From positions 1 to 39,572 of the IMG/VR virus record IMGVR_UViG_2531839178_000021: DNA of 39,572 nucleotides; one strand, given 5' to 3'. The notes beneath the pieces are model-generated. The model saw only the letters and a list, made by a program, of their open reading frames with translations. It made no database searches and had not been told where the DNA came from. Both the position numbers and the translations under genes were made by a program. This DNA comes from a virus. Taxonomy: Duplodnaviria; Heunggongvirae; Uroviricota; Caudoviricetes. Shown piece by piece: positions 2,180-29,063 of this stretch. The first letter of the stretch is position 1. Each line of letters starts with the position of its first letter.

Positions 2180-2239
2180 GGCTGTGTCCCTTAATCATCT
2201 GAGCTATAGTAACTGTCTGTTTACACAACATATTGAACT

Positions 2240-3084: not shown

Positions 3085-3097
3085 GGGACACAGCCTA

Positions 3098-3884: not shown

Positions 3885-4109
3885 ATGCCGGACAACGTAG
3901 ATTTTATTCAGGAACAACAGGCTGAATTACTGGAGCGCCAGATTAACGCGGCAAGGGTAAAACATTGCGGTGCTTCTGCGCTGGTTTGCGAAGAGTGTGA
4001 CGCGCCAATACCTGCTGCCCGTCGTGCGGCTTATCCGTCAGCCACGCGTTGTGTTTCCTGTCAGTCAGTCTTTGAAGCAAAAAATAAACATTACCGGAGA
4101 ACGGCATGA
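3885..4109 (+). CDS. Small C4 zinc-finger protein (TraR/DksA-like; P2 orf82-like)
   Basis: CEECDAPIPAARRAAYPSATRCVSCQ, a Cx2C..Cx2C motif. Confidence 0.65.
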   Translation: MPDNVDFIQEQQAELLERQINAARVKHCGASALVCEECDAPIPAARRAAYPSATRCVSCQSVFEAKNKHYRRTA

Positions 4110-4381
4110 GTATTCGTATTGAAATTGGCGAACGTTATGTCGTTACCAGTGACAGCTTCCAGTTTATTCTCCACGAGAAAAAGAGAGCGGAAAGCGGTAA
4201 AAACGCCGGTCAGGAATGGCTGGCGGTGGTTGGTTATTACCCGAAATTAAGCCAGCTTGTTTCCGGCCTGATGCATCACGATATTCTGACCGGAAGCGCA
4301 AAGTCTTTTGCTGATTTAAACGCGCAGGTTGAGCAACTCAGCAAGCGTTGTTCAGAGGCTTTTGGCTCATATGGCCGTTAA
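4106..4381 (+). CDS. Small early-operon protein (P2 orf83-like)
   Basis: 91-aa ORF MSIRIEIGERYVVTSDSFQFILHEKKRAESGKNAGQEW; translationally coupled. Confidence 0.6.
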   Translation: MSIRIEIGERYVVTSDSFQFILHEKKRAESGKNAGQEWLAVVGYYPKLSQLVSGLMHHDILTGSAKSFADLNAQVEQLSKRCSEAFGSYGR

Positions 4382-6653
4382 AGCCTCCGGGCGTTTTGTC
4401 CCTCCGTCAGCATTTGCTGCAGGCACCGGTAAGGCGTTTACCGGTGCTTATGCATGGAACGCGCCACGCGAGGCTGTCGGGCGCGAAAGACCCTTTACAC
4501 GTGACGAGATGCGTCAGGTGCAAGGTGTTTTATCCACGATTAACCGCCTGCCTTACTTTTTGCGCTCGCTGTTTACTTCACGCTATGACTACATCCGGCG
4601 CAATAAAAGCCCGGTACACGGGTTTTATTTCCTCACATCCACTTTTCAGCGTCGTTTATGGCCGCGCATTGAGCGTGTGAATCAGCGCCATGAAATGAAC
4701 ACCGACGCGTCGTTGCTGTTTCTGGCAGAGCGTGACCATTATGCGCGCCTGCCGGGAATGAATGACAAGGAGCTGAAAAGGTTTGCCGCCCGTATCTCAT
4801 CGCAGCTTTTCATGATGTATGAGGAACTCTGCGATGCCTGGGTGGATGCGCATGGCGAAAAAGAATCGCTGTTTACGGATGAGGCGCAGGCGCATCTGTA
4901 TGGTCATGTTGCTGGCGCTGCACGTGCTTTCAATATTTCCCCGCTTTACTGGAAAAAATACCGTAAAGGATAGATGACCACGAGGCAGGCATATTCTGCC
5001 ATTGCCCGTCTGTTTAACGATGAGTGGTGGACTCATCAGCTTAAAGGCCAGCGTATGCGCTGGCATGAGGCGTTATTGATAGCTGTCGGGGAGGTCAATA
5101 AAGACCGTTCTCCTTATGCCAGTAAACATGCCATTCGTGATGTGCGTGCGCGCCGTCAGGCAAATCTGGAGTTTCTTAAATCGTGTGACCTTGAAAACAG
5201 GGAAACCGGCGAACGCATCGACCTTATCAGTAAGGTGATGGGCAGTATTTCTAATCCTGAAATTCGCCGGATGGAGCTGATGAACACCATTGCCGGTATT
5301 GAGCGTTACGCCGCCGCAGAGGGTGATGTGGAGATGTTTATCACGCTGACCGCGCCGTCAAAGTATCACCCGACACGTCAGGTCGGAAAAGGCGAAAGTA
5401 AAACCGTCCAGCTTAATCACGGCTGGAATGATGAGGCATTTAATCCGAAGGATGCGCAGCGTTATCTCTGCCGTATCTGGAGCCTGATGCGCACGGCATT
5501 CAAGGATAATGATTTACAGGTCTACGGTTTGCGAGTCGTCGAGCCACACCACGACGGAACGCCGCACTGGCATATGATGCTTTTTTGTAATCCACGCCAG
5601 CGTAACCAGATTATCGAAATCATGCGTCGCTACGCGCTCAAAGAGGATGGCGACGAAAGAGGAGCTGCGCGAAACCGTTTTCAGGCAAAACACCTTAACC
5701 GGGGCGGTGCTGCGGGATATATCGCGAAATACATTTCAAAAAACATCGACGGCTATGCACTGGATGGTCAGCTCGATAACGATACCGGCAGGCCGCTGAA
5801 AGACACCGCCGCGGCTGTTACTGCATGGGCGTCAACGTGGCGCATCCCGCAATTTAAAACGGTTGGCCTGCCGACAATGGGGGCTTACCGTGAACTACGC
5901 AAATTGCCTCGCGGCGTCAGTATTGCTGATGAGTTTGACGAACGCGTCGAGGCTGCACGCGCTGCCGCAGACAGTGGTGATTTTGCGTTGTATATCAGCG
6001 CGCAGGGTGGGGCAAATGTTCCGCGCGATTGTCAGACTGTCAGGGTTGCCCGTAGTCCGTCGGATGAAGTTAACGAGTACGAGGAAGAAGTCGAGAGAGT
6101 GGTCGGCATTTACGCGCCGCATCTCGGCGCGCGTCATATTCATATCACCAGAACGACGGACTGGCGCATTGTTCCGAAAGTGCCGGTCGTTGAGCCTTTG
6201 ACTTTAAAAAGCGGCATCGCCGCGCCTCGGAGTCCTGTCAATAACTGTGGAAAGCTCACCGGTGGTGATACTTCGTTACCGGCTCCCACACCTTCTGAAC
6301 ACGCCGCAGCAGTGCTTAATCTGGTTGATGACGGTGTTATCGAATGGAATGACACGGAGGTCGTGAGGGCGCTCAGGGGCGCATTAAAACACGGCCTGAG
6401 AAGACCAAACCGTCAGCAAAGAAACGGAAGCCCGTTAAAACCGCATGAAATAGCGCCATCGGCCAGACTGACCCGGTCGGAAAGAATGCAAATTACCCGT
6501 ATCCGCGTTGACCTTGCTCAGAACGGTATCAGGCCGCAGCGATGGGAGCTTGAGGCGCTGGCGCGTGGTGCGACCGTAAATTACAACGGGAAAAAATTTA
6601 CGTATCCGGTCGCTGATGAGTGGAGTTGGTTTTATTGTTATTCAGAGCAATAA
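4371..6653 (+). pseudogene. A: Replication initiation protein A (rolling-circle nickase), 761 codons, interrupted by an in-frame TAG at 4971-4973
   Basis: ORFs 4329-4973 and 4974-6653 are in the same frame separated only by TAG; combined span from ATG 4371 matches the recalled 761-aa length of P2 gpA; HUH-like region ..PHWHMMLF.. and GYIAKYISK present. Confidence 0.8.
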
Positions 6654-6769
6654 ACATCTGATTTAATTTGTTGCATAATAGTAAAATTGCTGTTTATCTG
6701 CATGTGTTAACTATTGATAATTATGTTGCTAATAATGTGTGCAAATTTATACTGAAAAAGGTGAAAACG

Positions 6770-6922
6770 ATGAATGATATCTTTGTTCTTACAAGGGAAG
6801 AGCTTGAAACACTAGATTATAGTGTTTTTATGCATATACCAGTTACATTTCATGCACATAAAATAAAAAATATCTGGATGGGATTGCTGAATCATCAGAA
6901 AACCCCAAAGAGAAAAAATTAG
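6770..6922 (+). CDS. Cargo locus ORF segment 1 (frame 2), possibly the N-terminus of one larger gene
   Basis: ATG 6770 with AAGGTG 7 nt upstream; low-GC; frame-1 ORF opens at 6862 overlapping this segment across A6 runs (6865-6870, 6913-6918). Confidence 0.45.
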   Translation: MNDIFVLTREELETLDYSVFMHIPVTFHAHKIKNIWMGLLNHQKTPKRKN

Positions 6923-6936
6923 CATCTCTTTTTGGT

Positions 6937-7242
6937 ATGCTATATAGTTTCAATTTGCAAGTTGTTAACAACACTCCATCATTTGAACCCCAAATGATTT
7001 GGGGTAATAAAAGATCAATATTGCCTGAAGATTTTGATGAGCAGGTGAATGACTGTCTTTTATATGTTTCTCAAAAAATAACCAATCCATTTTTGTTATC
7101 AAGAATATATGATGTTGTTTGGTGTAATAATCGGAAAAATAAAGACGTGGCAATTAAAGCAATTGATTCCTATGCTGAAATGCTAAATATAGCAATTGAA
7201 AAGCTAATAATAAAAACGAAAGCATGGATGAAAGTGATTTAA
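6937..7242 (+). CDS. Cargo locus ORF segment 2 (frame 1), hypothetical
   Basis: 101-aa ORF MLYSFNLQVVNNTPSFEPQMIWGNKRS...; overlaps segment 3 by 19 nt across an A5 run (7212-7216). Confidence 0.45.
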   Translation: MLYSFNLQVVNNTPSFEPQMIWGNKRSILPEDFDEQVNDCLLYVSQKITNPFLLSRIYDVVWCNNRKNKDVAIKAIDSYAEMLNIAIEKLIIKTKAWMKVI

Positions 7243-8600
7243 ATTGCTTTATTTTTGCTCGTGATTATATTGCTAGGGCTTTGCACATTAATAAAATGGT
7301 CTACCCTAGAAAATCAGAAGGAAACATGGCGATTAAAAATGCCATTCATTCTCTTTATAGTATTCAAAATGAAAGATTAATCTTTGAAGGTTTCAATAAT
7401 TTGACTTGGTTTATGGTGCGTGATTTTGATGGGTATAATCTGCAGTATGCGGAAAATGCTGAGAAGATGGCTGAGCAGCATAAAGATAAAAAATATTATG
7501 ATGCTGTAAAATCACTTTATATGACAAGTGCAGTTATTTATGAAAAAAATGGTGAGTATGAACGTGCCAAGAGATGTAAACTGGCATCTGCAAATATTAC
7601 TATTAAAGTTGCAACAGATCGACCTGATAATATGGGTAAGATCTCTTGGTTAAGAACAGCTATCTCTGAATTAAGACAGTACGGTGGTGATAGCCAACAG
7701 ATAGAAGATTTAAAGGAACAACTTGCTAATTTGAGAGAAGAAGTAAGGAGTGAATATGTCACTTTAAGCCATTCTATTGATATTAGTGACTTGGTTGCTG
7801 AAAGTGAAAAAAAACTGACGGGGCGTTCTTTGCCCGATATATTCAAAGTTTTAATGCGTGAAACACCGATTGAAAATATTGAAAGCATGAGGGAACAAGT
7901 TTTAAGATTATCAGAAAAAAGTTTATTCTCTAGTTTTGTTGGAACAGAAATTAATGATGAGAGTGGGCGTAAGATATATACAATCCCGCCGTTGGATAAT
8001 AAAAAAGATATGAGTGATGATGTTGTTATTGATCAATATCTAAGAAATTTCGAGATTACTCATAAGATTTTTGTAAACGGTGTCTTTGAACCTGCTCGCT
8101 ATGTACTTTCTCAAGAACATGGCTTGACGTTGTCAACATTCGTTAAATTGGTTACAACTAGTCCAATTGTCAAGCCGGAGTTTAGGGAGATTTTTAATTT
8201 GGGCTTTTACAAATTATGGCAGGGAGATTACATCAGTGCAGCTTATCTTTTAATACCACAAATGGAGGGTATGGTTCGTTATTATTATGAGCTTAGTGGA
8301 AAGGATGCTACTAGATATTTGGATAAGGGATTAGAGGAGTCAACAAGTATTTCTCAGCTTCTAGATAAATGCAGAGATGATTTGGAAAGTATCTTTTCTA
8401 AAAATCTTGTTTTGACTATCGATGTTCTTTTTAACAGAAAGAGTGGGGCAACCTTAAGACATAAATTAGCACATGGTAATTTATATACTAATGCTTGTTA
8501 CGATGAAACAACGACATATGCATGCATCCTGATTTTCTTTCTGTGTGCTTATCCTCTCCTACCATATTTTGATACTGTTTTTGAACAGGGCTCTGTTTGA
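7224..8600 (+). CDS. Cargo protein, 458 aa, unknown function with C-terminal HEPN-like R-x4-H motif; candidate abortive-infection/defence effector
   Basis: low-GC ORF; motif RHKLAHG encoded at 8457-8477; coiled-coil-like EDLKEQLANLREEVRSEY; no Walker A, so not an Old-type ATPase. Confidence 0.6.
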   Translation: MDESDLNCFIFARDYIARALHINKMVYPRKSEGNMAIKNAIHSLYSIQNERLIFEGFNNLTWFMVRDFDGYNLQYAENAEKMAEQHKDKKYYDAVKSLYMTSAVIYEKNGEYERAKRCKLASANITIKVATDRPDNMGKISWLRTAISELRQYGGDSQQIEDLKEQLANLREEVRSEYVTLSHSIDISDLVAESEKKLTGRSLPDIFKVLMRETPIENIESMREQVLRLSEKSLFSSFVGTEINDESGRKIYTIPPLDNKKDMSDDVVIDQYLRNFEITHKIFVNGVFEPARYVLSQEHGLTLSTFVKLVTTSPIVKPEFREIFNLGFYKLWQGDYISAAYLLIPQMEGMVRYYYELSGKDATRYLDKGLEESTSISQLLDKCRDDLESIFSKNLVLTIDVLFNRKSGATLRHKLAHGNLYTNACYDETTTYACILIFFLCAYPLLPYFDTVFEQGSV

Positions 8601-8751
8601 TAACGTATACGTTGAGGCATAAAACCTATGCATACTTAGCTGCATCAATTTGCACGAGGTATTTCAGTATGCATTTTCTGCGTAATAGTAGGGATTGCTT
8701 GGTTTGGTAGTTGTAATTCAACTGCATTCAAACCGACCCATGAAGCGGGCG

Positions 8752-8770
8752 GGCGAGGCGGGGAAAGCAC
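8752..8770. other. cos: cos site (19-nt cohesive end sequence of P2-type phages)
   Basis: GGCGAGGCGGGGAAAGCAC matches the recalled P2 cohesive end; located between the A-side cargo and Q as expected. Confidence 0.7.
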
Positions 8771-8912
8771 TGCGCGCTGGCGGTGGTGCTGATTTTATTT
8801 TTTCAGCGTCTCAGCGCGTCGTGACGGCGCTTAGTCTGCCCGTTGGGGTGTTGGTGTGTCTGCGGGCTGTTTTGTGCTGTGGTGAGCGTGTGAGGGCGTG
8901 ATGACGGGATGT

Positions 8913-8934
8913 AAAAAAGCCGCCCGCAGGCGGC
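8913..8934 (-). terminator. Rho-independent terminator downstream of Q
   Basis: minus strand GCCGCC-tgcg-GGCGGC followed by TTTTTT. Confidence 0.6.
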
Positions 8935-8939
8935 GATGT

Positions 8940-9929
8940 TCAGCCGTTGTCAGTGTCCAGTGAGTAGTTTTTAAAGCGGATGACCTCCTGACCGAGCCAG
9001 CCGTTTATCTCGCGGATCCTGTCCTGTAACGGGATAAGCTCATTGCGGACAAAGACCTTTGCCACTTTCTCAATATCACCCAGCGACCCGACGTTCTCCG
9101 GCTTGCCGCCCATCAACTGAAAGGGGATGCGGTGCGCGTCAAGCAGGTCAGCGGCGCTGGCTTTTTTGATATTAAAAAAATCGTCCTTCGTTGCCACTTC
9201 ACTGAGCGGGATAATTTTAATGCCGTCGGCTTTTCCCTGTGGGGCATAGAGAAACAGGTTTTTAAAGTTGTTGCGGCCTTTCGACTTCACCATGTTTTCG
9301 CGAAGCGTTTCGATATCGTTGCGATCCTGCACGGCATCAGTGACGTACATGATATATCCGGCATGAGCGCCGTTTTCGTAATACTTGCGGCGGAACAGCG
9401 TGGCCGACTCATTCAGCCAGGCAGAATTAAGGGCGCTGAGATATTCCGGCAGACCGTACAGCTCCTGATTAATATCCGGCTCCAGCAGGTGAAACACGGA
9501 TCCGGGCGCGAAGGCTGTCGGCTCGTTAAAGGACGGCACCCACCAGTAAACATCCTCCTCCACGCCACGGCGGGTATATTTTGCCGGTGAGGTTTCCAGT
9601 CTGATGACCTTACCGGTGGTGCTGTAACGCTTTTCCAGAAACGCATTACCGAACACCAGAAAATCCAGCACAAAGCGGCTGAAATCCTGCTGGGACAGCC
9701 ACGGGTGCGGGATAAACGTTGAAGCCAGAATATTACGTTTGACGTAAATCGGTGAGCTGTGATGCACGGCAGCACGCAGGCTTTTTGCCAGACCGGTAAA
9801 GCTGATTGGTGGCTCATACCATCTGCTGTTACTGATGCATTCGACGTAATCCAGAATGTCACGGTGGTCGAGTACCGGCACCGGCTCACCAAAGGTGAAT
9901 ACCTCCATTTTCGGGGCGCTGGCGGTCAT
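8940..9929 (-). CDS. Q: Portal protein Q; N-terminus frame-broken (probable true start ATG at 9973)
   Basis: 329-aa ORF MTASAPKMEVFTFGEPVPVLDHRDILDYVECISNSRWYEPP; upstream ATG at 9973-9971 with GGAG 8 nt upstream, out of frame by one base across a 5-nt homopolymer (plus-strand T-run 9960-9964). Confidence 0.85.
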   Translation of the reverse strand: MTASAPKMEVFTFGEPVPVLDHRDILDYVECISNSRWYEPPISFTGLAKSLRAAVHHSSPIYVKRNILASTFIPHPWLSQQDFSRFVLDFLVFGNAFLEKRYSTTGKVIRLETSPAKYTRRGVEEDVYWWVPSFNEPTAFAPGSVFHLLEPDINQELYGLPEYLSALNSAWLNESATLFRRKYYENGAHAGYIMYVTDAVQDRNDIETLRENMVKSKGRNNFKNLFLYAPQGKADGIKIIPLSEVATKDDFFNIKKASAADLLDAHRIPFQLMGGKPENVGSLGDIEKVAKVFVRNELIPLQDRIREINGWLGQEVIRFKNYSLDTDNG

Positions 9930-12772: not shown

Positions 12773-12845
12773 CCGGCGTCAGTCAGTCCGGGAAAACCTT
12801 CACGATTAACCCTTAATTTCAGGAAAAACTATGCGCCAGGAAACC

Positions 12846-14271
12846 TAATGCCGATCAGTTAAGGATCAGTTGACCGATCCAGTGGCTGTGTAAGAATCCG
12901 GAAACGCTCACTTGTTTCCGGATTTTTTTATGCACATTGGACAGGCTCTTGATCTGGTATCCCGTTACGATTCTCTGCGTAACCCACTGACTTCTCTGGG
13001 GGATTACCTCGACCCCGAACTCATCTCTCGTTGCCTTGCCGAATCAGGTACTGTAACGCTACGCAAGCGCCGTCTTCCCCTCGAAATGATGGTCTGGTGT
13101 ATTGTTGGCATGGCGCTTGAGCGTAAAGAACCTCTTCACCAGATTGTGAATCGCCTGGACATCATGCTGCCGGGCAATCGCCCCTTCGTTGCCCCCAGTG
13201 CCGTTATTCAGGCCCGCCAGCGCCTGGGAAGTGAGGCTGTCCGCCGCGTGTTCACGAAAACAGCGCAGCTCTGGCATAACGCCACGCCGCATCCGCACTG
13301 GTGCGGCCTGACCCTGCTGGCCATCGATGGTGTGTTCTGGCGCACACCGGATACACCAGAGAACGATGCAGCCTTCCCCCGCCAGACACATGCCGGGAAC
13401 CCGGCGCTCTACCCGCAGGTCAAAATGGTCTGCCAGATGGAACTGACCAGCCATCTGCTGACGGCTGCAGCCTTCGGCACGATGAAGAACAGCGAAAATG
13501 AGCTTGCTGAGCAACTTATAGAACAAACCGGCGATAACACTCTGACGTTAATGGATAAAGGTTATTACTCACTGGGACTGTTAAATGCCTGGAGCCTGGC
13601 GGGAGAACACCGCCACTGGATGATACCTCTCAGAAAGGGAGCGCAATATGAAGAGCTCAGAAAACTGGGTAAAGGCGATCATCTGGTGAAGCTGAAAACC
13701 AGCCCGCAGGCACGAAAAAAGTGGCCGGGACTGGGAAATGAAGTGACAGCCTGCCTGCTGACCGTGACGCGCAAAGGAAAAGTCTGCCATCTGCTGACGT
13801 CGATGACGGACGCCATGCGCTTCCCCGGAGGAGAAATGGCGGATCTGTACAGTCATCGCTGGGAAATCGAACTGGGATACAGGGAGATAAAACAGACGAT
13901 GCAACTGAGCAGGCTGACGCTGAGAAGTAAAAAGCCGGAGCTTGTGGAGCAAGAGCTGTGGGGTGTCTTACTGGCTTATAATCTGGTGAGATATCAGATG
14001 ATTAAAATGGCGGAACATCTGAAAGGTTACTGGCCGAATCAACTGAGTTTCTCAGAATCATGCGGAATGGTGATGAGAATGCTGATGACATTGCAGGGCG
14101 CTTCACCGGGACGTATACCGGAGCTGATGCGCGATCTTGCAAGTATGGGACAACTTGTGAAATTACCGACGAGAAGGGGAAGGGCCTTCCCGAGAGTGGT
14201 AAAGGAGAGGCCCTGGAAATACCCCACAGCCCCGAAAAAGAGCCAGTCAGTTGCTTAACTGACTGGCATTA
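12846..14271 (+). mobile_element. IS4, 1426 bp, with 13-bp target-site duplication gcgccaggaaacc
   Basis: ends taatgccgatcagttaag ... cttaactgactggcatta; identical 13-mers at 12833-12845 and 14272-14284. Confidence 0.9.
12930..14258 (+). CDS. insG: IS4 transposase (442 aa)
   Basis: [71 protein letters not shown]. Confidence 0.9.
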
Positions 14272-15346
14272 GCGCCAGGAAACCCGCTTTAAATTTAATG
14301 CCTACCTGTCCCGTGTTGCCGAACTGAACGGCATCGACGCCGGTGATGTGTCGAAAAAATTCACCGTTGAACCGTCGGTCACCCAGACCCTGATGAACAC
14401 CATGCAGGAGTCCTCTGACTTTCTGACCCGCATCAACATTGTGCCGGTCAGCGAAATGAAAGGGGAAAAAATTGGCATCGGTGTCACCGGCTCCATCGCC
14501 AGCACCACCGACACCGCCGGTGGGACTGAGCGTCAGCCGAAGGACTTCTCGAAGCTGGCGTCTAACAAGTACGAATGCGACCAGATTAACTTCGATTTTT
14601 ATATCCGCTACAAAACGCTTGACCTGTGGGCGCGTTATCAGGATTTCCAGCTCCGTGTCCGTAACGCCATTATCAAACGCCAGTCCCTTGATTTCATCAT
14701 GGCCGGTTTTAACGGCGTGAAGCGTGCCGAAACTTCTGACCGCAGCAGCAATCCGATGTTGCAGGATGTGGCGGTCGGCTGGTTGCAGAAATACCGCAAT
14801 GAAGCCCCGGCGCGCGTGATGAGCAAGGTCACTGACGAGGAAGGGCGCACCACCTCTGAGGTTATCCGCGTGGGTAAGGGCGGCGATTATGCCAGCCTTG
14901 ATGCACTGGTGATGGATGCGACCAACAACCTGATTGAACCGTGGTATCAGGAAGACCCTGACCTTGTGGTGATTGTGGGACGTCAGCTACTGGCGGACAA
15001 GTATTTCCCCATCGTCAACAAAGAGCAGGACAACAGCGAAATGCTGGCCGCTGATGTCATCATCAGCCAGAAACGCATCGGTAACCTGCCGGCGGTACGC
15101 GTCCCGTACTTCCCGGCGGATGCGATGCTCATCACGAAGCTGGAAAACCTGTCCATCTACTACATGGATGACAGCCATCGCCGCGTGATTGTGGAAAACC
15201 CGAAACTCGACCGCGTGGAGAACTACGAGTCAATGAACATTGATTACGTGGTGGAAGACTATGCCGCCGGTTGTCTGGTGGAGAAAATTAAGGTCGGTGA
15301 TTTCTCCACACCGGCTAAAGCGACCGCAGAGCCGGGAGCGTAACCG

Positions 15347-15640
15347 ATGACGAGTCCCGCACAGCGCCACATGATGCGGGTCTCGGCAGCGATGACCGCG
15401 CAGCGGGAAGCCGCCCCGCTGCGACATGCAACTGTCTATGAGCAGATGCTGGTTAAGCTCGCCGTAGACCAGCGCACACTGAAAGCAATTTATTCAAAAG
15501 AGCTGAAGGCCGCGAAAAAACGCGAACTGCTGCCGTTCTGGTTGCCGTGGGTGAATGGCGTGCTGCCGCACGGCACCGCCGTCGAACTGCCCGACGTTCA
15601 GACCGCGCCCGTGGCTGAAACTGTCAATCTGTGGGAGTAA
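15347..15640 (+). other. 97-codon ORF, probably an in-frame fusion remnant of terminase small subunit M (5' part) and tail protein X (3' end) left by deletion of most of M, all of L and most of X
   Basis: only ~300 bp separate N stop (15343) from holin Y start (15644), where P2 order N-M-L-X-Y needs ~1.4 kb; the M and X assignments of the two halves are from memory. Confidence 0.5.
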
Positions 15641-15643
15641 CGC

Positions 15644-15925
15644 ATGACAGCAGAAGAAAAAAGCGTTCTGTCGCTTTTCATGATTGGGGTGCTGATTGTT
15701 GTCGGCAAGGTGCTTGCCGGTGGTGAACCCATCACCCCGCGTCTGTTTATCGGGCGCATGTTGCTCGGTGGTTTTGTCTCGATGGTTGCCGGTGTTGTTC
15801 TGGTGCAGTTTCCTGACCTGTCACTGCCTGCGGTGTGCGGCATTGGCTCCATGCTGGGTATCGCCGGTTATCAGGTGATTGAGATTGCCATTCAGCGCCG
15901 CTTTAAGGGCAGGGGGAAACCGTAA
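15644..15925 (+). CDS. Y: Holin Y
   Basis: 93-aa ORF with hydrophobic helices MTAEEKSVLSLFMIGVLIVVGKVLAGG...; precedes endolysin. Confidence 0.85.
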   Translation: MTAEEKSVLSLFMIGVLIVVGKVLAGGEPITPRLFIGRMLLGGFVSMVAGVVLVQFPDLSLPAVCGIGSMLGIAGYQVIEIAIQRRFKGRGKP

Positions 15926-16422
15926 TGCCGGTTATTAACACGCATCAGAATATCGCCGCCTTTCTCGACATGCTGGCCGTGTCCGAAGGGACGGCGAATC
16001 ATCCGCTGACGAAAAAACGGGGCTATGACGTGATAGTCACCGGACTGGACGGAAAGCCGGAAATTTTCACCGACTACAGTGACCACCCGTTCGCGCATGG
16101 CCGACCGGCGAAGGTGTTTAACCGTCGCGGTGAAAAATCCACGGCCTCCGGTCGCTATCAGCAGCTTTACCTGTTCTGGCCGCACTACCGCAAACAGCTT
16201 GCCCTGCCGGATTTCAGTCCGTTGTCACAGGACAGACTTGCCATTCAGTTGATCCGTGAACGCGGTGCACTGGATGACATCCGGGCGGGACGCATTGAGC
16301 GCGCCATTTCACGCTGTCGCAATATCTGGGCGTCCCTGCCGGGTGCCGGTTACGGTCAGCGTGAGCATTCACTGGAAAAACTGGTCACCGTCTGGCGTAC
16401 CGCTGGCGGCGTACCTGCTTAA
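15925..16422 (+). CDS. K: Endolysin K (lysozyme-like)
   Basis: MPVINTHQNIAAFLDMLAVSEGTANHPLTKKRGYDVIVTGLDGKPEIFTDYSDHPF. Confidence 0.85.
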   Translation: MPVINTHQNIAAFLDMLAVSEGTANHPLTKKRGYDVIVTGLDGKPEIFTDYSDHPFAHGRPAKVFNRRGEKSTASGRYQQLYLFWPHYRKQLALPDFSPLSQDRLAIQLIRERGALDDIRAGRIERAISRCRNIWASLPGAGYGQREHSLEKLVTVWRTAGGVPA

Positions 16423-16436
16423 ACGGAGTAAACACC

Positions 16437-16862
16437 ATGAAGAAATTATCCCTTTCACTGATGCTGAACGTGTCGCTGGCGCTGATGCTGGCACTGTCCC
16501 TGATTTACCCGCAGAGCGTGGCCGTCAATTTTGTCGCCGCCTGGGCGATTCTGGCGACGGTTATCTGTGTGGTTGCCGGTGGTATCGGCGTGTATGCCAC
16601 TGAGTATGTACTGGAACTCTACGGGCGGGAGCTGCCGCCGGAATCGCTGGCCGTGAAGATTGTCACGTCGCTGTTTTTGCAGCCGGTGCCGTGGCGCAGA
16701 CGGGCGGCGGCTCTGGTTGTGATGGTGGCGACATTTATCTCGCTGGTCGCTGCCGGGTGGATTTTTACCGCGCTGATTTATCTCGTAGCGTCGCTGTTTT
16801 TCCGGCTGATACGCACGGCCTGCCGTCAGCGTCTTGAGGGGCGGGAACCATGTCAAGGCTGA
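16437..16862 (+). CDS. lysA: Lysis regulatory membrane protein LysA
   Basis: 141-aa multi-TM ORF following K. Confidence 0.75.
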   Translation: MKKLSLSLMLNVSLALMLALSLIYPQSVAVNFVAAWAILATVICVVAGGIGVYATEYVLELYGRELPPESLAVKIVTSLFLQPVPWRRRAAALVVMVATFISLVAAGWIFTALIYLVASLFFRLIRTACRQRLEGREPCQG

Positions 16863-17275
16863 TGATTGTACTGATTGTGTTGTTATCGCTGGCGGTGGCG
16901 GGTCTGTTTCTGGTGAAACACAAAAATGCCAGCCTGCGCGCTTCGCTGGACAGGGCGAACAGCGTCGCCAGCGGGCAGCAGACGACCATCACCATGCTGA
17001 AAAATCAGCTTCATGTTGCGCTCACCAGGGCAGAAAAAAACGAGCTGGCGCAGGTGGCACTGCGTCAGGAACTGGAAAACGCCGCGAAGCGTGAAGCACA
17101 GCGCGAGAAAACCATCACGAGGTTACTCAATGAAAACGAAGATTTTCGCCGCTGGTACGGTGCTGACCTGCCTGATGCTGTGCGCCGGTTGCACCAGCGT
17201 CCGGCCTGCACCGACGCCAGTGATTGTCGCCAACGCCTGCCCGAAAGTGAGTCTTTGCCCGATGCCGGGCAGTGA
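16850..17275 (+). CDS. lysB: LysB (Rz-like inner-membrane spanin)
   Basis: N-terminal TM MSRLMIVLIVLLSLAVAGLFLV followed by coiled-coil region. Confidence 0.75.
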   Translation: MSRLMIVLIVLLSLAVAGLFLVKHKNASLRASLDRANSVASGQQTTITMLKNQLHVALTRAEKNELAQVALRQELENAAKREAQREKTITRLLNENEDFRRWYGADLPDAVRRLHQRPACTDASDCRQRLPESESLPDAGQ

Positions 17276-17420
17276 CCCGCAGACGAACGGCGATTTAAGT
17301 GCTGATATCAGGCAGCTTGAGAACGCGCTGGCACGCTGTGCCAGCCAGGTAAAAATGATTAAACACTGTCAGGACGAAAACGATGCTCAAACCCGACAGC
17401 CTGTGCAGGGCGTTGACTGA
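17130..17420 (+). CDS. lysC: LysC (Rz1-like outer-membrane lipoprotein spanin), overlapping lysB in another frame
   Basis: MKTKIFAAGTVLTCLMLCAGC lipoprotein signal with lipobox; Pro-rich mature part. Confidence 0.7.
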   Translation: MKTKIFAAGTVLTCLMLCAGCTSVRPAPTPVIVANACPKVSLCPMPGSDPQTNGDLSADIRQLENALARCASQVKMIKHCQDENDAQTRQPVQGVD

Positions 17421-17850
17421 TGCCGTCACGGTGCTGAAAACTAACCCCGATATGCTGCGGATATTCGTGGATAACGGGAGTATTGCCTCCACACTGGCGA
17501 CGTCGCTGTCGTTCGAAAAGCGTTACACGCTCAATGTGATTGTGACCGACTTTACCGGTGATTTTGACCTGCTCATCGTGCCGGTGCTGGCGTGGCTGCG
17601 GGAAAATCAGCCCGACATCATGACCACCGACGAAGGCCAGAAAAAGGGCTTCACGTTTTATGCAGACATCAACAATGACAGCAGCTTTGATATAAGCATC
17701 AGCCTGATGCTGACCGAGCGCACGCTGGTCAGTGAGGTGGACGGCGCGCTGCATGTGAAGAATATCCCTGAACCTCCGCCGCCGGAGCCGGTTACCCGCC
17801 CGGTGGAGCTTTATATCAATGGCGAACTGGTGAGCAAGTGGGATGAATGA
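17383..17850 (+). CDS. R: Tail completion protein R
   Basis: 155-aa ORF MLKPDSLCRALTDAVTVLKTNPDMLRIFVDNGSIAS. Confidence 0.8.
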   Translation: MLKPDSLCRALTDAVTVLKTNPDMLRIFVDNGSIASTLATSLSFEKRYTLNVIVTDFTGDFDLLIVPVLAWLRENQPDIMTTDEGQKKGFTFYADINNDSSFDISISLMLTERTLVSEVDGALHVKNIPEPPPPEPVTRPVELYINGELVSKWDE

Positions 17851-18294
17851 GTTTAAGCGTTTTGAAGACCGGCTGGCCGGACTGACTGAATCGCTGTCAC
17901 CGTCAGGGCGTCGGCGACTGAGCGCCGAACTGGCGAAACGTCTGCGTCAGAGTCAGCAGCGTCGGGTGATGGCACAGAAAGCCCCGGACGGCACACCCTA
18001 CGCGCCACGTCAGCAGCAGAGCGCCAGAAAAAGACCGGTCGCGTTAAGCGAAAAATGTTTGCGAAACTTATCACCAGTCGTTTTTTGCATATCCGCGCCA
18101 GCCCGGAACAGGCATCAATGGAGTTTTACGGCGGGAAGTCACCGAAAATCGCCAGTGTGCATCAGTTCGGTCTGTCGGAAGAAAACCGGAAAGACGGTAA
18201 GAAAATTGATTATCCGGCGCGTCCTCTGCTCGGCTTTACCGGTGAGGATGTGCAGATGATTGAAGAGATTATCCTGGCTCACCTGAATCGTTAG
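17843..18294 (+). pseudogene. S: Tail completion protein S, frame-broken at an A5 run (18028-18032)
   Basis: ORF 17843-18259 (MNEFKRFEDRLAGLTESLSPSGRRRLSAELAKRLRQSQQ...SARK) shifts to ORF 18055-18294 (MFAKLITSRFLHIRASPEQ...ILAHLNR) by a 1-nt deletion-type break. Confidence 0.75.
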
Positions 18295-18497
18295 CTTTAA
18301 TCATCTGAGAATATAAGATAGAAATCAATTGATTAGCATAATTTATTTTGAATTTTCATGTTAATAAATAAAAGGCCAGTTATTGGCCTTTTATCATTAC
18401 TTTCCATTTTTTAATGAATTGATTAACGATGCTATTTGCTCAATGCCATCAAATGTAGATGGTATCTTATCATCGGATAGCATGATGTTTGAAAATA

Positions 18498-18815
18498 CTA
18501 CGTCTTCGAATTTTGAAAGCGCTTCCGGATTGTTTTTCTTATCTCTGAGGAATAGTCGCTATAACTCTGAATGAACTGACAAAGGCTCTTTTTGAGTTCT
18601 ATTTGCATAATCTGAGTTCGTAACGATATATGATTTAGCAGTACAACTCTAAAGTAATACATGAAAATCAATGTAACTGATGCAAAAGGTAGTGCTGACA
18701 TAAAATATGTGGCAGCATTTGTCGTTTCGAGAGCTGGTAATTTATGCATTCCATAGTATATCAGCGGGGAGGGAATGATTATAGCCAAGATGATAAGAAT
18801 TATTCTTGATAGCAT
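18498..18815 (-). CDS. Small membrane protein (two predicted TM helices), cargo, unknown function
   Basis: 105-aa low-GC ORF MLSRIILIILAIIIPSPLIYYGM...ATYFMSALPFASVTLIFMYYFRVVLL; downstream of and co-oriented with the 18902-19468 gene. Confidence 0.55.
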   Translation of the reverse strand: MLSRIILIILAIIIPSPLIYYGMHKLPALETTNAATYFMSALPFASVTLIFMYYFRVVLLNHISLRTQIMQIELKKSLCQFIQSYSDYSSEIRKTIRKRFQNSKT

Positions 18816-18901
18816 GATTGCACTTTCTTTTTTTTGCCAAGTGAATTAAAGCCTTCAAACAATCCAACAAAATTAAATGCGACCTCATACCCTTTTAATG
18901 A

Positions 18902-19468
18902 CTATTTGATTGACTCTATTTTGGTATGTTGCTCCTTTAAGAAGGAGTCGCACTTTTCGAAAAATTGACGCCCTTCGTTTAAACTATCAATGTATTTTTT
19001 ATATGTGTCAACATTGCTGGAGCTTAAAACTTCTTTAACCATTGCTAATGGCAGTTCTCTAAGAGAAAAGTCTATCTGTGCTCTGCTCCGCTCATCGAAT
19101 TCATTATAGTTATACAGAGCAAAATCCTTGATGGTTCTTAGTGGTGAAAAGTGAGACTCTATTTCCGGAGAGAGAATGCTTGGTTCAATGATAAATCTAA
19201 AAAAGCAAGTGAATATAAGGTTGATGCTGTTGTTATCTTCTCCCTTTTCTCTTAAGAAACTTTTAAAGGTGTCGCCAATCATAGCAATGTTGTGCTGGGA
19301 TTTTTTGTCCCAATCTTCAGGGTTTTCGGAAATGAAGTTTATTGCTTGAGCAATTATTTTGTTTCTGTTTGATTCAAAGTTTGTGCCGGGAGTCAGCGTG
19401 TTCAAAAAGACCAGATAATCTTTGAACAATTCTTTCATTGTTTCTGACGAGAAAAAGTAAGTACTCAT
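18902..19468 (-). CDS. Hypothetical cargo protein (~188 aa), unknown function
   Basis: low-GC ORF on the strand opposite to the tail genes, inserted between S and V; start taken at ATG 19468 (MSTYFFSSETMKELF); the longer ORF to 19564 uses GTG and overlaps the V start. Confidence 0.5.
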   Translation of the reverse strand: MSTYFFSSETMKELFKDYLVFLNTLTPGTNFESNRNKIIAQAINFISENPEDWDKKSQHNIAMIGDTFKSFLREKGEDNNSINLIFTCFFRFIIEPSILSPEIESHFSPLRTIKDFALYNYNEFDERSRAQIDFSLRELPLAMVKEVLSSSNVDTYKKYIDSLNEGRQFFEKCDSFLKEQHTKIESIK

Positions 19469-19554
19469 AATGGATTTTGTTGTCCCTTGTTGTTCTGTGC
19501 ACCAGAAATCGTGGTGTGATTTACTTCGAGATTGTACAGAATCATTATTATCGA

Positions 19555-20184
19555 ATGAATGCACAATACAATGAAATTCTTCGCTTTATACGCAATATGA
19601 TTCGCACTGGCATTATTGTCGAAACCGACCTTAATGCCGGTCGCTGCCGTGTGCAGACCGGCGGCATGTGCACCGACTGGCTTCAGTGGCTGACCCATCG
19701 CGCCGGACGTTCGCGCACATGGTGGGCACCTTCCGTGGGGGAACAGGTGCTGATTCTGGCCGTGGGCGGTGAACTCGACACGGCGTTCGTTCTGCCGGGG
19801 ATTTATTCCTGCGATAACCCCGCGCCGTCTGCGTCGGCGGATGCCCTGCATATCCGTTTCCCTGACGGGGCGGTGATTGAGTATGAACCCGAAACCAGTG
19901 CACTCACGGTAAGCGGAATTAAAACGGCCAGCGTGACGGCTTCTGATTCTGTTACTGCCACGGTGCCGGTGGTCATGGTGAAAGCGTCAACCCGCATCAC
20001 CCTGGACACCCCGGAGGTGGTCTGCACCAACAGACTGATTACCGGCACGCTGGAAGTGCAGAAGGGCGGGACGATGCGCGGCAACATTAAACATACCGGC
20101 GGTGAACTCTCATCAAACGGTAAGGTACTGCATACCCATAAACACCCCAGCGACAGCGGCGGCACAACCGGGAGTCCTCTATGA
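19555..20184 (+). CDS. V: Baseplate spike protein V
   Basis: MNAQYNEILRFIRNMIRTGIIVETDLNAGRCRVQTGGMCTDWLQWL. Confidence 0.85.
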   Translation: MNAQYNEILRFIRNMIRTGIIVETDLNAGRCRVQTGGMCTDWLQWLTHRAGRSRTWWAPSVGEQVLILAVGGELDTAFVLPGIYSCDNPAPSASADALHIRFPDGAVIEYEPETSALTVSGIKTASVTASDSVTATVPVVMVKASTRITLDTPEVVCTNRLITGTLEVQKGGTMRGNIKHTGGELSSNGKVLHTHKHPSDSGGTTGSPL

Positions 20185-22860: not shown

Positions 22861-22931
22861 TTCAGAAAGATCAGAACGGTGCGGATATCCCTGATAAAGA
22901 ACGCTTCCTGAGTAACATTAGGCTGTGTCCC

Positions 22932-23444
22932 TTAATTACGTAAGCGTTGATAAAAGAGTCGGATGCAGCCCAGTTTCACCATCGCCAGGTAATTTCTCGC
23001 CGTTTTGTCGTAACGCGTGGCGATGCGGCGATATTCTTTCAGCCGCCCAAAGCACCGTTCAACGACATTACGATTGCAGTACGCATCACGATCAAGCTGT
23101 GCACGTCCATCCGATGCCATTTTCTCATTTGACTTTCGGGGGATTACTGCCTTTATACCGTTATTTTTCAGCTCGTTGCGCAATGCGCGCCCTGAATACG
23201 CTTTATCAGCCAGTACCGCATGTCCACGGCGTTTCATGCTGCCGTTCTGACGCTGAACGCCAATCCCGTCCAGAAGTCGTTGCGCGAACTGGCTTTCATG
23301 AGCTTGTCCGGGGCTTAGCACGATATTTAACGGGAGGCCACTTCCGTCTGTTGCCAGATGGATTTTGGTGCCAAAACCGCCGCGAGAGCGACCCAGCCCA
23401 TTATCTCCGTCGATATCGGGATGTTTTTTGAGCACCGGCGGCAC
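22932..23444 (-). CDS. IS transposase OrfB (copy 2)
   Basis: same protein as 2569-3084 apart from the N-terminal residues at the A-run. Confidence 0.75.
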   Translation of the reverse strand: MPPVLKKHPDIDGDNGLGRSRGGFGTKIHLATDGSGLPLNIVLSPGQAHESQFAQRLLDGIGVQRQNGSMKRRGHAVLADKAYSGRALRNELKNNGIKAVIPRKSNEKMASDGRAQLDRDAYCNRNVVERCFGRLKEYRRIATRYDKTARNYLAMVKLGCIRLFYQRLRN

Positions 23445-23775
23445 ATTTCAGCGCCCGGATATTACTGCCATCCAGCGCGGTGGCAGACCAGTCAATAAAG
23501 CCGTTTGCATCAAGTAGCGAAAGCAACCTGTTGAAAATAATATTAATCACGCCTGACTTTGACCATCGGTTAAAGCGGTTATAAACAGTTTTCCATGACC
23601 CATATCGTTCGGGTAAATCGCGCCATGGTGCACCGGAACATAACACCCAGAACATGCCATTGATGATTTTACGGTGCTCAGCCCATGGGCGTCCGGCCCG
23701 TGGTGTGGCGGGTTCAGGAGGTAACAGGGGCTTGATGATGGTCCATGCCTCATCGGGAAGGTCGTAGCGAGCCAT
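23401..23775 (-). CDS. IS transposase OrfA (copy 2); with A6 the OrfB frame is +1 rather than -1
   Basis: MARYDLPDEAWTIIKPLLPP...AQKTSRYRRR stop. Confidence 0.7.
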   Translation of the reverse strand: MARYDLPDEAWTIIKPLLPPEPATPRAGRPWAEHRKIINGMFWVLCSGAPWRDLPERYGSWKTVYNRFNRWSKSGVINIIFNRLLSLLDANGFIDWSATALDGSNIRALKCAAGAQKTSRYRRR

Positions 23776-24682
23776 AGTTCAATATGTTGTGTAAACAGAC
23801 AGTTACTATAGCTCAGATGATTAAGGGACACAGCCTAGTGTTTTTTATGTTGAAGCCAGAGCTTTCCCTGTACAAATTCTTGCAGAGGAAGGGCTAACGG
23901 TTATTGTTCCGACAGAGGATTATGTCGTCGGTCAAACGACATATAAGTGGGGGGCAACTAATCCCGCTACAGAAAGCACGAACGCACAGGCTATTCTGGA
24001 TTTTAAAAATGGACGTGGTTATTACTGTTCACATCCATTTATTTCCAGCCTTTCAGGAAATGCTGCAACAGCAACGAAGTTAGCGAACGCAAGAAATATT
24101 AATGGTGTCAGATTTGATGGCTCTGCCGATATAAATATTAATACACTGGTATCCAGAAACCGTGTTACTGCATTAGGTGGGAGCGTAAAGGGGACACCAG
24201 GTATTCAGATGTATGAGGCATACAACAATGGCTACCCAACAGCCTATGGTAATGTGCTTCATCTCACTGGCGTAACCGCAGTAGGAGAGGGTGAGTTACT
24301 TATTGGTTGGAGTGGAACCAGCGGTGCTCATGCTCCGGCATATATTCGTTCCCGACGAGATACCACAGATGCTAACTGGTCTGGATGGGCGCAACTATAT
24401 ACAACTGCTCATAAACCCTCAGCGGGAGATGTTGGTGCATACACCAAAACTGAGTCAGATTCACGTTATGTGAGAGACATGCGGCTGGGCGGTGCATCTA
24501 CATATAAACCAGCAAATAATGGTACTACATGGACGCATCAGGCTCCGTCAGGTTGCGTATATACCGGCATTATTGTTCAGGATACCGGCTCAAACTCTGC
24601 CGATAACATTGGTGGCGTATATTACAGACCGGTGCAGAAATACATTAACGGGACATGGTATAACGTGGTGCAGGTATAATTT

Positions 24683-25298: not shown

Positions 25299-25677
25299 AC
25301 CCTCGATTACATCAAAGAGCCCTATAGCCGAAACCTGCACCATAGCCATCTCTGTAGAATTCGTCCTAGGGGCTTTTAACAGACCTAGTTGTATGGATCG
25401 GAAGGAAATATTAAAGCTCAAGGCGTCAGTCCAGTGCTGTCCTGTTTGCTTACCACACGAAAGAGTGCTGCTTGTACCTGCTAACTAATGGTATGCGGAG
25501 TGAGGGGGGCGGGTAGAACCAAAAGCACTTACTACGTGTGGCGCTCTCCTGGAAGAGGAGACGTCGAAGTGATAACGCTAACAACAGTCTTACTGGTGAT
25601 GCAAATAATGCTAGCTGGTCTGGTTGCCATCAAGCAACTGACCGGACGCCCGTAAGGGATGGAGGAACTTGATTAAA

Positions 25678-25707
25678 GGCAGGGGGGTTACCTCCCCTGC
25701 CTTTTTC
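25678..25707 (+). terminator. Strong rho-independent terminator
   Basis: GGCAGGGG-ggttacct-CCCCTGCC followed by TTTTT; lies ~470 nt downstream of G stop with no ORF of 60 aa or more between. Confidence 0.75.
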
Positions 25708-25769
25708 GTTTCTGCGCAAGTTAGCTCTGTTATTATAATCCTTACTCACACTGTAAGGACATAGTTCAA

Positions 25770-26033
25770 ATGACTGAATGGCTTAATGCACATTTTGGTG
25801 CAGACGCAGCTACCTATCTTAGCTTATTAGTCGGCGTACTGGCACTGTTTGGTATTGGGGGCGGTGTTACATATAGAATCAGACAGCAAAACAACATAAA
25901 ACAGAAGGCAAAGAAAACCGAGGGTGATGTGAACCAGGCCGGGCGGGATATTAATCAGACCACCAACGTTTACCACACATCCAATGAATCTACTGAGGAC
26001 CCTGTAAAAAAAAGCAAGATGAACATGATCTGA
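25770..26033 (+). CDS. Membrane-anchored hypothetical protein, N-terminal segment (single TM helix)
   Basis: TATAAT at 25734-25739; MTEWLNAHFGADAATYLSLLVGVLALFGIGGGV; ORF ends just after an A8 run (26006-26013) where the next ORF's frame opens. Confidence 0.55.
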   Translation: MTEWLNAHFGADAATYLSLLVGVLALFGIGGGVTYRIRQQNNIKQKAKKTEGDVNQAGRDINQTTNVYHTSNESTEDPVKKSKMNMI

Positions 26034-26056
26034 AGATAATCGACCAGATCCTTGAA

Positions 26057-26452
26057 TTGCTGCCTTATGAGGATACTACTCAATGGGTTGAGCAGAGCTA
26101 CCTGAGCGGTATACGGCAAGATGTTTGCTTAAACATTGAAAAAGCTGAAAAATTTAGCGGTGAAAAGTATCGGTTATTCAATACTGAAGTGAATGGTGCG
26201 AAAGACGCTTTTTTGGACGCTATGACCGCATACGTAGATAGTACGCTACCATTTATGAGTGTTGATTACCCGAACAGAAAGCCAGTGATGCTAAGCCTTC
26301 CCCATGACTGGAAGAGTAAGAGTGTTGAATCGGAGGCAAACTTCCGCTTTCATCAGCAAAATGTGCGTGAAACATCGGGGGGGATGATTGCGCGCTATGA
26401 GGATTTTGTCAGGACATTTAAGGCTCATGGATTCATAAGCGATAAACTGTAA
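26057..26452 (+). CDS. Hypothetical protein segment lacking an ATG start; probably the C-terminal part of one ~227-aa gene 25770-26452 broken by a 1-nt deletion
   Basis: frame open from 25997; ORF-track start is TTG; frame offset from 25770 is of deletion type. Confidence 0.5.
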   Translation: MLPYEDTTQWVEQSYLSGIRQDVCLNIEKAEKFSGEKYRLFNTEVNGAKDAFLDAMTAYVDSTLPFMSVDYPNRKPVMLSLPHDWKSKSVESEANFRFHQQNVRETSGGMIARYEDFVRTFKAHGFISDKL

Positions 26453-26545
26453 AGGCGCAGTGGGTCAGCGAACACCGCAACGACAGAACCGCGTAAGCGG
26501 TAAAATCAGCTTGTTAACTGGCGAGTTTATAGCCGTCCCTCCGGG

Positions 26546-27846: not shown

Positions 27847-27931
27847 CCCTCCGGGGCGGCTTTTTTATGACTATAATCGACAGAATCACCTGAACGTCCA
27901 GGTGGGTTTCCCTGACAGGACGTCAAGGAAT

Positions 27932-27970
27932 GTTCGCTTTGTGCCAGGAGCGGACGTTGCCAGCATTGAG
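27932..27970 (+). repeat. ~39-bp direct repeat, copy B (partner at 25260-25298)
   Basis: see copy A. Confidence 0.7.
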
Positions 27971-28116
27971 TTTTCAGTTTTCAAAGGTATATCTTTAGAT
28001 TTAGTTCACTTAGAATGAGCGTGTTAAAGTTTTCGGTTATGTGAGTATATTGAACATAACAAATAAACAATAATTTTTGTATTCCATTTAGGATATAAAA
28101 AAGAGGGATTTGAGTT

Positions 28117-28902: not shown

Positions 28903-29004
28903 GTAAAAAGTTGAAGCTATAATACTCAAAGTATCGAAAACTACGTTCGTCGTGCACTCGAAAACAATATGCTTATTGTGTCTGCACTAATTACTCAAGG
29001 TCCG

Positions 29005-29041: not shown

Positions 29042-29063
29042 AACTTGAGTTATTGGTTAAAAT

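What the first reader, a model, noticed from the sequence alone, without database searches (positions are those of the whole stretch)
15347..15640. Apparent deletion of terminase small subunit M, head completion L and tail protein X
P2-type gene order is N-M-L-X-Y, needing ~1.4 kb between N and the holin, but only a 294-bp ORF is present. Its N-terminal two-thirds (MTSPAQRHMMRVSAAMTAQREAAPLRHATVYEQMLVKLAVDQRTLKAIYSKELKAAKKRELLPFWLPWVNGVL) look like the start of M and its last ~25 residues (PHGTAVELPDVQTAPVAETVNLWE) like the end of X, suggesting an in-frame deletion by recombination at a short GVL-encoding homology. Without M and L the prophage cannot package DNA.
Basis: partly seen in the sequence, partly recalled or inferred. 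Interest (0 to 1): 0.45.

Follow-up and report, generated by a model that had tools for sequence, protein, structure and literature searches.

The report
Deletion scar in dead P2-like prophage
The 97-codon ORF is the scar of a 1,262-bp deletion that removed most of the small terminase gene M, all of head gene L and most of tail gene X from a heavily decayed P2-like prophage; this is ordinary prophage decay.

Summary
Against phage Wphi and an intact E. coli prophage at the same yegQ/ogrK locus, window 14272-15575 is N plus M codons 1-73. Window 15560-18294 is X from codon 42 onward, then Y, K, lysABC, R and S. Exactly 1,262 bp are missing. The crossover lies in a 6-bp direct repeat, GTGCTG (15560-15565), which encodes Val-Leu in both M and X. 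The product is M(1-73) joined to X(44-67), ending at X's own stop. No M, L or X homolog lies elsewhere in the window.

The identical junction occurs in seven independent contigs, including a complete chromosome. The exact protein is deposited as "small terminase subunit [Shigella dysenteriae]". None of 5,426 complete E. coli genomes has this junction.

The deletion is one of about ten lesions:
- IS4 destroys the N start codon.
- An IS5-family element splits B, and a second copy splits H.
- A carries a nonsense codon.
- P, Q, S and FII carry frameshifts.
- int is truncated.

Two small corrections apply. The shared homology is VL (6 bp), not GVL. The deletion is not a multiple of three, but it joins two genes that lie in different frames. 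This is a known kind of event and of low interest.

The parts
15347..15640 (+). Chimeric M'-'X ORF (97 codons plus TAA), the deletion scar
   Evidence: ORF list and sequence. Pfam matches to PF05944 and PF05489. tblastn with M and X of E. coli A23.
15347..15565 (+). M' part: codons 1-73 of the small terminase gene M, with its native ribosome-binding site and ATG. It is 72/73 identical to Wphi and A23 gpM (A40V).
   Evidence: blastn: window 14272-15575 matches Wphi 4083-5386 and A23 12959-14262. Translations compared.
15560..15565 (+). Crossover microhomology GTGCTG (Val-Leu). Intact relatives have two copies 1,262 bp apart (M codons 72-73 and X codons 42-43); one copy remains here.
   Evidence: Three-way alignment at the junction. 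Positions in A23 are 14247 and 15509.
15566..15640 (+). 'X part: codons 44-67 of tail protein X plus its native stop, 24/24 identical to Wphi and A23 gpX. The N-terminal LysM fold of gpX is lost.
   Evidence: blastn: window 15560-18294 matches Wphi 6633-9368. PDB 2LTF 'Tail protein X' residues 38-67 match ORF residues 68-97.
14273..15343 (+). Capsid gene N, codons 2-357, without its start codon (ATG replaced by TAG at 14270-14272)
   Evidence: tblastn: N residues 2-357 match 14273-15340. Junction sequence.
12846..14271 (+). IS4 (1,426 bp) inserted after codon 5 of N, with a 13-bp target duplication GCGCCAGGAAACC at 12833-12845 and 14272-14284
   Evidence: Pfam Nterm_IS4 plus DDE_Tnp_1. blastn overlap at Wphi 4083-4095. 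Junction sequences.
15644..15925 (+). Holin gene Y, intact, starting 3 nt after the fusion ORF's stop as it does after X in intact phages
   Evidence: PF04550 over its full length. 93/93 identical to A23 Y.

Best explanation
The ORF is a pseudogene scar. In an ancestor of this Shigella dysenteriae lineage, a P2-like (Peduovirus) prophage at the yegQ/ogrK site lost 1,262 bp between two copies of GTGCTG, one in M (codons 72-73) and one in X (codons 42-43). The likely route is RecA-independent slipped mispairing or illegitimate recombination at microhomology. One repeat copy was kept. M codons 74-247, the M-L spacer, all of L and X codons 1-43 were removed.

X lies in the +2 frame relative to M and 1,262 mod 3 = 2. 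The M frame therefore runs into the X frame and ends at X's own stop, 3 nt before the holin start. The product keeps about a third of the small-terminase domain and none of the LysM fold of gpX, so it should have neither function.

The junction, the microhomology, the absence of M, L and X elsewhere, and the presence of the same junction in independent assemblies are shown directly. The slippage mechanism and the loss of function are inferred.
For: - Breakpoints map identically against Wphi and against the intact E. coli A23 prophage at the same locus. The deletion is 1,262 bp in both.
- The 46-nt neighbourhoods of the two breakpoints are more alike than about 99% of random window pairs from M..X (local score 12 against 6.9 +/- 1.5; 1.1% of random pairs reach it).
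- No IS sequence lies at the junction; the IS4 end is 1,288 bp upstream.
- There is no other M, L or X homolog in the window.
- The same 71-nt junction is exact in 7 contigs from different samples, including the complete chromosome CP027027.
- The exact protein occurs on 50 contigs and is named 'small terminase subunit [Shigella dysenteriae]'.
- The L002 region is 99.7% identical to the window over 14.6 kb and shares the deletion, the IS4 insertion and the P frameshift, so the event predates the split of those strains.
- An independent 971-bp deletion with about 8 nt of overlap, from M into Y, in E. coli VTB96775v shows that such events recur in this interval.
- Many further lesions in the same prophage show relaxed selection.
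Against: Nothing contradicts it. The weak points:
- The mechanism is inferred from the junction alone. There are 586 direct 6-mer repeat pairs within M..X, so a 6-bp repeat is not a specific hotspot.
- The order of the deletion relative to the IS4 insertion and the P frameshift is unknown, because every contig found carries them together.
- Expression of the fusion ORF was not measured.
- The host assignment rests on a database name for the identical protein and on the junction's absence from complete E. coli genomes. The window's own record was not identified.
Confidence: 0.93

Rival explanations
1. The fusion ORF is a retained, functional small protein. For example, a dominant-negative fragment of the small terminase (gpM residues 1-73) could interfere with DNA packaging by superinfecting P2-like phages or the P4 satellite.
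For: The reading frame is open and keeps M's native ribosome-binding site, M's ATG and X's stop. The protein sequence is identical on 50 contigs, and some carry nucleotide differences in the ORF.
Against: An open frame is expected one time in three by chance. The contigs were retrieved by exact protein identity, so the absence of amino-acid changes is a selection artefact. The lineage is also near-clonal (99.7% identity). IS4 sits between the late promoter region upstream of O and this ORF, and no promoter-like site above chance lies on the + strand in 14100-15700. The ORF matches no defence-family model. Neighbouring genes are decaying freely.
Confidence: 0.03
2. The junction is an assembly or sequencing artefact, a collapsed or mis-joined contig.
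For: The window contains several 1-bp homopolymer deletions not seen in the related genome L002 (Q and S). These could be sequencing errors.
Against: The same 71-nt junction is present in seven contigs from different samples and sources (NCBI complete genome, NCBI draft, five Logan assemblies of separate runs). A 6-bp repeat would not collapse an assembly.
Confidence: 0.01
3. The deletion was made by the neighbouring IS4 (an IS-mediated adjacent deletion), or by homologous recombination between two P2-like prophages, not by microhomology slippage.
For: IS4 lies only 1.3 kb upstream, and the genome is IS-rich with at least five IS copies in the window.
Against: IS-mediated adjacent deletions start at the IS end. 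Here 1,288 bp of colinear N and M sequence separate the intact IS4 end, with its 13-bp target duplication preserved, from the junction. Both sides of the junction are colinear with a single phage genome and share only 6 bp, too short for RecA-dependent recombination.
Confidence: 0.02
4. The element is a domesticated tail-only particle (R-type tailocin-like) that shed its head genes on purpose.
For: Head and packaging genes are hit: P, Q, N, M and L. The lysis cassette Y, K, lysA, lysB and lysC is intact.
Against: Tail genes are also hit. X is deleted, S and FII are frameshifted, and H is split by an IS. The tail module is therefore not maintained.
Confidence: 0.01

Closest known systems
gpM, small terminase subunit of P2/Wphi-type phages (Pfam PF05944)
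   Same: Residues 1-73 of the ORF are 72/73 identical to gpM of Wphi and of the E. coli A23 prophage. Gene position, ribosome-binding site and start codon are the same, directly after N.
   Different: It lacks gpM residues 74-247 and covers only profile positions 1-44 of 130. It cannot be filed as a terminase subunit, although the database entry names it so.
gpX, P2 baseplate 'glue' protein with a LysM fold (Pfam PF05489; PDB 2LTF 'Tail protein X')
   Same: The last 24 residues, plus the shared Val-Leu, are identical to gpX residues 42-67. X's stop codon and its 3-nt spacing to the holin are kept.
   Different: It lacks gpX residues 1-41. This removes the N-terminal LysM fold described for P2 gpX (bioRxiv 10.64898/2026.09.14.750843).
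Defective ('grounded') prophages decaying by IS insertion, point mutation and deletion; the review PMC6379469 was listed (title and abstract only)
   Same: There are multiple independent inactivating lesions in replication, integration, head and tail genes. The prophage is inherited vertically within a lineage.
   Different: Nothing differs in kind. This is one more instance, with a precisely mapped junction.
Independent M-to-Y deletion in the P2-like prophage of E. coli VTB96775v (NZ_CP178634.1)
   Same: It affects the same interval of the late operon, removes L and X, and has short sequence overlap at the junction (about 8 nt).
   Different: The breakpoints differ: 971 bp, from M codon ~229 to Y codon ~31. 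It truncates the holin and does not create an M-X fusion.

Membership tests
P2-like (Peduoviridae) prophage | Hallmark head and packaging genes Q, P, O, N, M and L in the P2 order (PMC13100340; bioRxiv 10.64898/2026.09.14.750843) | tested here: not met
   Q, P, O and N are present at 97-99% amino-acid identity to an intact relative, but Q and P are frameshifted and N has lost its start. M is reduced to 73 codons and L is absent. It is a remnant of a member, not a complete member.
P2-like (Peduoviridae) prophage | Colinearity with a reference P2-type genome across early, lysis and tail modules | tested here: met
   blastn shows 96-99% identity in colinear blocks with Wphi and with the E. coli A23 prophage, from int to ogr. 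The blocks are interrupted only by IS elements, hotspot cargo and the deletion.
Small terminase subunit (PF05944 Phage_term_smal) | Full-length match to the family domain above the curated cutoff | tested here: not met
   The score of 42.8 bits exceeds the 29.4 cutoff, but only profile positions 1-44 of 130 are matched. The rest of the gene is deleted.
Tail protein X (PF05489, LysM-type fold) | Match above the curated cutoff that includes the LysM core | tested here: not met
   The score is 21.2 bits against a cutoff of 22, covering profile positions 41-60 of 60 only. PDB 2LTF aligns only at its residues 38-67.
Microhomology-mediated (illegitimate) deletion | A short direct repeat at both breakpoints in the intact sequence, one copy left at the junction, and no mobile-element sequence at the junction | tested here: met
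   GTGCTG occurs at A23 14247 and 15509, 1,262 bp apart, and as a single copy at window 15560-15565. The flanks are M-type on the left and X-type on the right.
Microhomology-mediated (illegitimate) deletion | RecA-independent replication slippage as the actual mechanism | not testable with these tools
   This is inferred from the junction anatomy only.
R-type tailocin (domesticated P2-type tail) | A complete, intact tail and lysis module without head genes | tested here: not met
   X is deleted, S and FII are frameshifted, and H is interrupted by an IS.

The most novel reading that the evidence does not exclude
The M(1-73)-X(44-67) chimera is expressed and acts as a dominant-negative small-terminase fragment. 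It would protect the host from superinfecting P2-like phages or P4-type satellites by poisoning terminase assembly or cos recognition, which would explain why the frame stayed open.
Probability: 0.03. Interest if true: 0.5.

Novelty: already known. Interest (0 to 1): 0.08.

Why it matters
It matters little beyond annotation. The ORF is deposited as a "small terminase subunit", but it is an M'-'X fusion pseudogene. Prophage-calling tools that count hallmark hits may score this region as more complete than it is. The mapped junction, together with the IS4 insertion in N and the P frameshift, is a clean shared-derived marker for one S. dysenteriae lineage. It also adds one well-resolved example of microhomology deletion during prophage decay.

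Tried and rejected
- Two scans of genome contigs, with the exact junction and a degenerate version, found nothing. That collection holds one genome per GTDB species. My guess, from general knowledge and not tested, is that Shigella genomes are filed there under E. coli.
- Searching 5,426 complete E. coli genomes found no copy of the junction and no IS4-N junction. No intermediate state was found that would order the lesions.
- A literature search for a described P2-like prophage in S. dysenteriae found only general prophage counts for serotype 1 genomes (27 regions, PMC7819885), with nothing on this locus.
- PADLOC gave no match for the fusion ORF.
- The promoter and terminator scan of 14100-15700 gave nothing above chance on the + strand.
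- I rejected four alternatives, for the reasons given under the rival explanations: assembly artefact, IS4-mediated adjacent deletion, relocation of M, L and X, and tailocin domestication.
- I did not use the large protein searches or structure prediction. DNA-level colinearity at 97% identity already settles the identity of both halves.

Full report
**Observation.** Upstream is a P2-family major capsid gene (14348-15343 as listed; PF05125, E=2e-144). Downstream, 3 nt after the stop, is a phage holin (15644-15925; PF04550). The ORF hits two Pfam families. PF05944 (small terminase) matches residues 35-78, but only profile positions 1-44 of 130. PF05489 (tail protein X) matches residues 71-90 at profile positions 41-60 of 60, at 21.2 bits against a 22-bit cutoff.

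**Mapping the breakpoints.** A megablast of 14900-16100 against phage records gave 118 records. None covered more than 56% of the query, and each typically had two matching places: N plus the start of M, then X-Y.
- Against Wphi (AY135739; annotated order Q P O N M L X Y K lysA lysB lysC R S V W J I H G), window 14272-15575 aligns to Wphi 4083-5386 and window 15560-18294 aligns to Wphi 6633-9368.
- The intact prophage of E. coli A23 (NZ_CP028752), which sits at the same chromosomal locus next to yegQ, gives the same result.
- The three-way alignment shows M-type sequence up to GTGCTG (window 15560-15565) and X-type sequence from GTGCTG onward. The two copies lie 1,262 bp apart in both relatives.
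- GTGCTG encodes Val72-Leu73 of M and Val42-Leu43 of X. The ORF is therefore M(1-73) joined to X(44-67).
- It is 72/73 identical to gpM (A40V) in the first part and 24/24 identical to gpX in the second.
- PDB 2LTF, "Tail protein X", aligns at its residues 38-67 with ORF residues 68-97.
- The deleted stretch is M codons 74-247, the M-L spacer, all of L (169 codons) and X codons 1-43.
- tblastn with M, L and X of the A23 prophage finds nothing else in the window below E=0.4, so these genes have not moved.

**Frame.** 1,262 is not a multiple of three. X starts 1,352 nt after M (2 mod 3) and the deletion is also 2 mod 3, so the M frame continues into the X frame and uses X's stop. Such a frame-joining outcome has a chance of about one in three and needs no special explanation.

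**Mechanism (inferred).** The anatomy is that of illegitimate recombination or replication slippage: one copy of a short direct repeat is left at the junction, no mobile-element sequence is present there, and both flanks are colinear with a single phage genome.
- The 46-nt neighbourhoods of the two breakpoints are more similar to each other than about 99% of random window pairs in M..X (local score 12 against 6.9 +/- 1.5).
- The region holds 586 direct 6-mer repeat pairs, so this is not a dedicated hotspot.
- IS4 is not responsible. Its right end (14271), with an intact 13-bp target duplication, is separated from the junction by 1,288 bp of colinear N and M sequence.

**Is it real, and where does it occur?**
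- The exact 97-residue protein is on record on 50 contigs and is named "small terminase subunit [Shigella dysenteriae]" (VDG88620.1).
- Seven contigs fetched from different samples all carry the identical 71-nt junction: a 5.04-Mb complete chromosome CP027027, an NCBI draft and five Logan assemblies.
- The short-read contigs break about 1.0-1.15 kb upstream of the ORF, which is where IS4 ends. This is consistent with IS4 being present in all of them.
- The CP027027 region is 99.7% identical to the window over 14.6 kb. It shares the deletion, the IS4 insertion and a 1-bp deletion in P, but its early region has been replaced by an IS630-type element and its S, Q and H genes are intact. The deletion is therefore older than the split of these strains.
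- None of 5,426 complete E. coli genomes carries the junction, although 1,507 hold P2-like sequence matching the query. None carries the IS4-N junction.
- One E. coli strain, VTB96775v, has a different deletion in the same interval: 971 bp, from near the end of M into Y, with about 8 nt of overlap.
- The flank of the window is yegQ. The best E. coli match is 99.1% identical.

**State of the rest of the prophage.** Comparison with every A23 prophage protein, followed by nucleotide checks, shows these lesions:
- int is cut at codon 293 at the left end of the window.
- B is split by an IS5-family element of about 916 bp (2180-3094).
- A carries CAG to TAG at 4971-4973.
- Q has a 1-bp deletion in an A-run.
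- P has a 1-bp deletion at about codon 545.
- N has lost its ATG to IS4 (12846-14271), leaving TAG at 14270-14272.
- S has a 1-bp deletion in an A-run.
- H is split by a second copy of the same IS (22920-23836).
- FII has a 1-bp deletion.
- More IS-type transposase genes lie between G and FI.

The lysis genes Y, K, lysA, lysB and lysC, along with R, V, W, J, I, FI, E, T, U, D and ogr, align over the full length (V from residue 5) without a frameshift or gap. Y, E and ogr are 100% identical; lysA, lysC, V and T are 92-95% identical.

**Function.** By the literature, gpM and gpL belong to the core hallmark set of all Peduoviridae (PMC13100340). gpL forms the 12-mer head-to-tail adaptor under the portal. 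gpX is the baseplate glue protein, whose N-terminal part adopts a LysM fold (bioRxiv 10.64898/2026.09.14.750843). The chimera keeps about a third of the terminase domain and none of the LysM fold, so I expect it to have neither activity. The prophage cannot package DNA, complete heads or build baseplates, and it is disabled several times over. No promoter-like site above chance lies between IS4 and the ORF, and no defence-family model matches it.

**Comparison and verdict.** What the ORF resembles (gpM, gpX) and what it is (a fusion pseudogene) must be kept apart. It fails full-domain membership of both families. The element is a remnant of a P2-like prophage. This is ordinary prophage decay in an IS-rich Shigella genome. 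The only non-trivial reading left open is that the open frame encodes a useful terminase-interfering fragment. Nothing supports it, and I give it about 3%.

Noticed in passing
window 12846-14271: A complete IS4 (1,426 bp; Nterm_IS4 plus DDE_Tnp_1) is inserted after codon 5 of capsid gene N. It has a 13-bp target duplication, GCGCCAGGAAACC. The downstream copy of N begins with TAG instead of ATG, so N has no start codon until GTG at 14348.
   Followed up: yes
window 2180-3094 and 22920-23836: Two copies of an IS5-family element of about 916 bp (DUF4096 plus DDE_Tnp_1 ORFs) lie in opposite orientations. One splits replication gene B at codon 101. The other splits tail-fibre gene H after about 320 codons. 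The exact ends and target duplications were not determined.
   Followed up: partly
window 4971-4973; ~10111; ~9960; ~18031; ~32734; 1-16: There are further inactivating changes: A has CAG to TAG at codon 201; P has a 1-bp deletion at about codon 545, shared with CP027027; Q and S have 1-bp deletions in A-runs, seen in this window only and possibly sequencing errors; FII has a 1-bp deletion; int ends at codon 293 of 337 at the left edge of the window.
   Followed up: yes
window 6937-8600: Between gene A and the cos/Q end lie two adjoining ORFs (101 and 458 aa). Both match the PADLOC candidate defence family PDC-S39 (E=2e-14 and 9e-71) at consecutive profile positions. This looks like one defence-candidate gene broken by a frameshift or truncated at its 5' end.
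   Followed up: partly
window 25300-31130: About 6 kb of non-P2 DNA lies between G and FI. It includes an IS4-family-type transposase ORF (26571-27794), a frameshifted IS630-type element (about 29885-31047, also present next to the prophage in CP027027), an ORF with a PDC-M68A / HNH-endonuclease-like N-terminus (29064-29816, E=8e-24) and an unassigned 261-aa ORF (28117-28902).
   Followed up: partly
window 18295-19590: A 1.3-kb insert lies between S and V, absent from Wphi and the E. coli A23 prophage. It carries two minus-strand ORFs (105 and 220 aa) with no Pfam or PADLOC match. It is also present in the related S. dysenteriae contigs, where a 188-aa gene is called.
   Followed up: partly
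L009 (E. coli VTB96775v, NZ_CP178634.1) 6078-6947: This is an independent 971-bp deletion in another P2-like prophage, from near the end of M to codon ~31 of holin Y, with about 8 nt of overlap at the junction. The same prophage also has an internal stop in P.
   Followed up: yes
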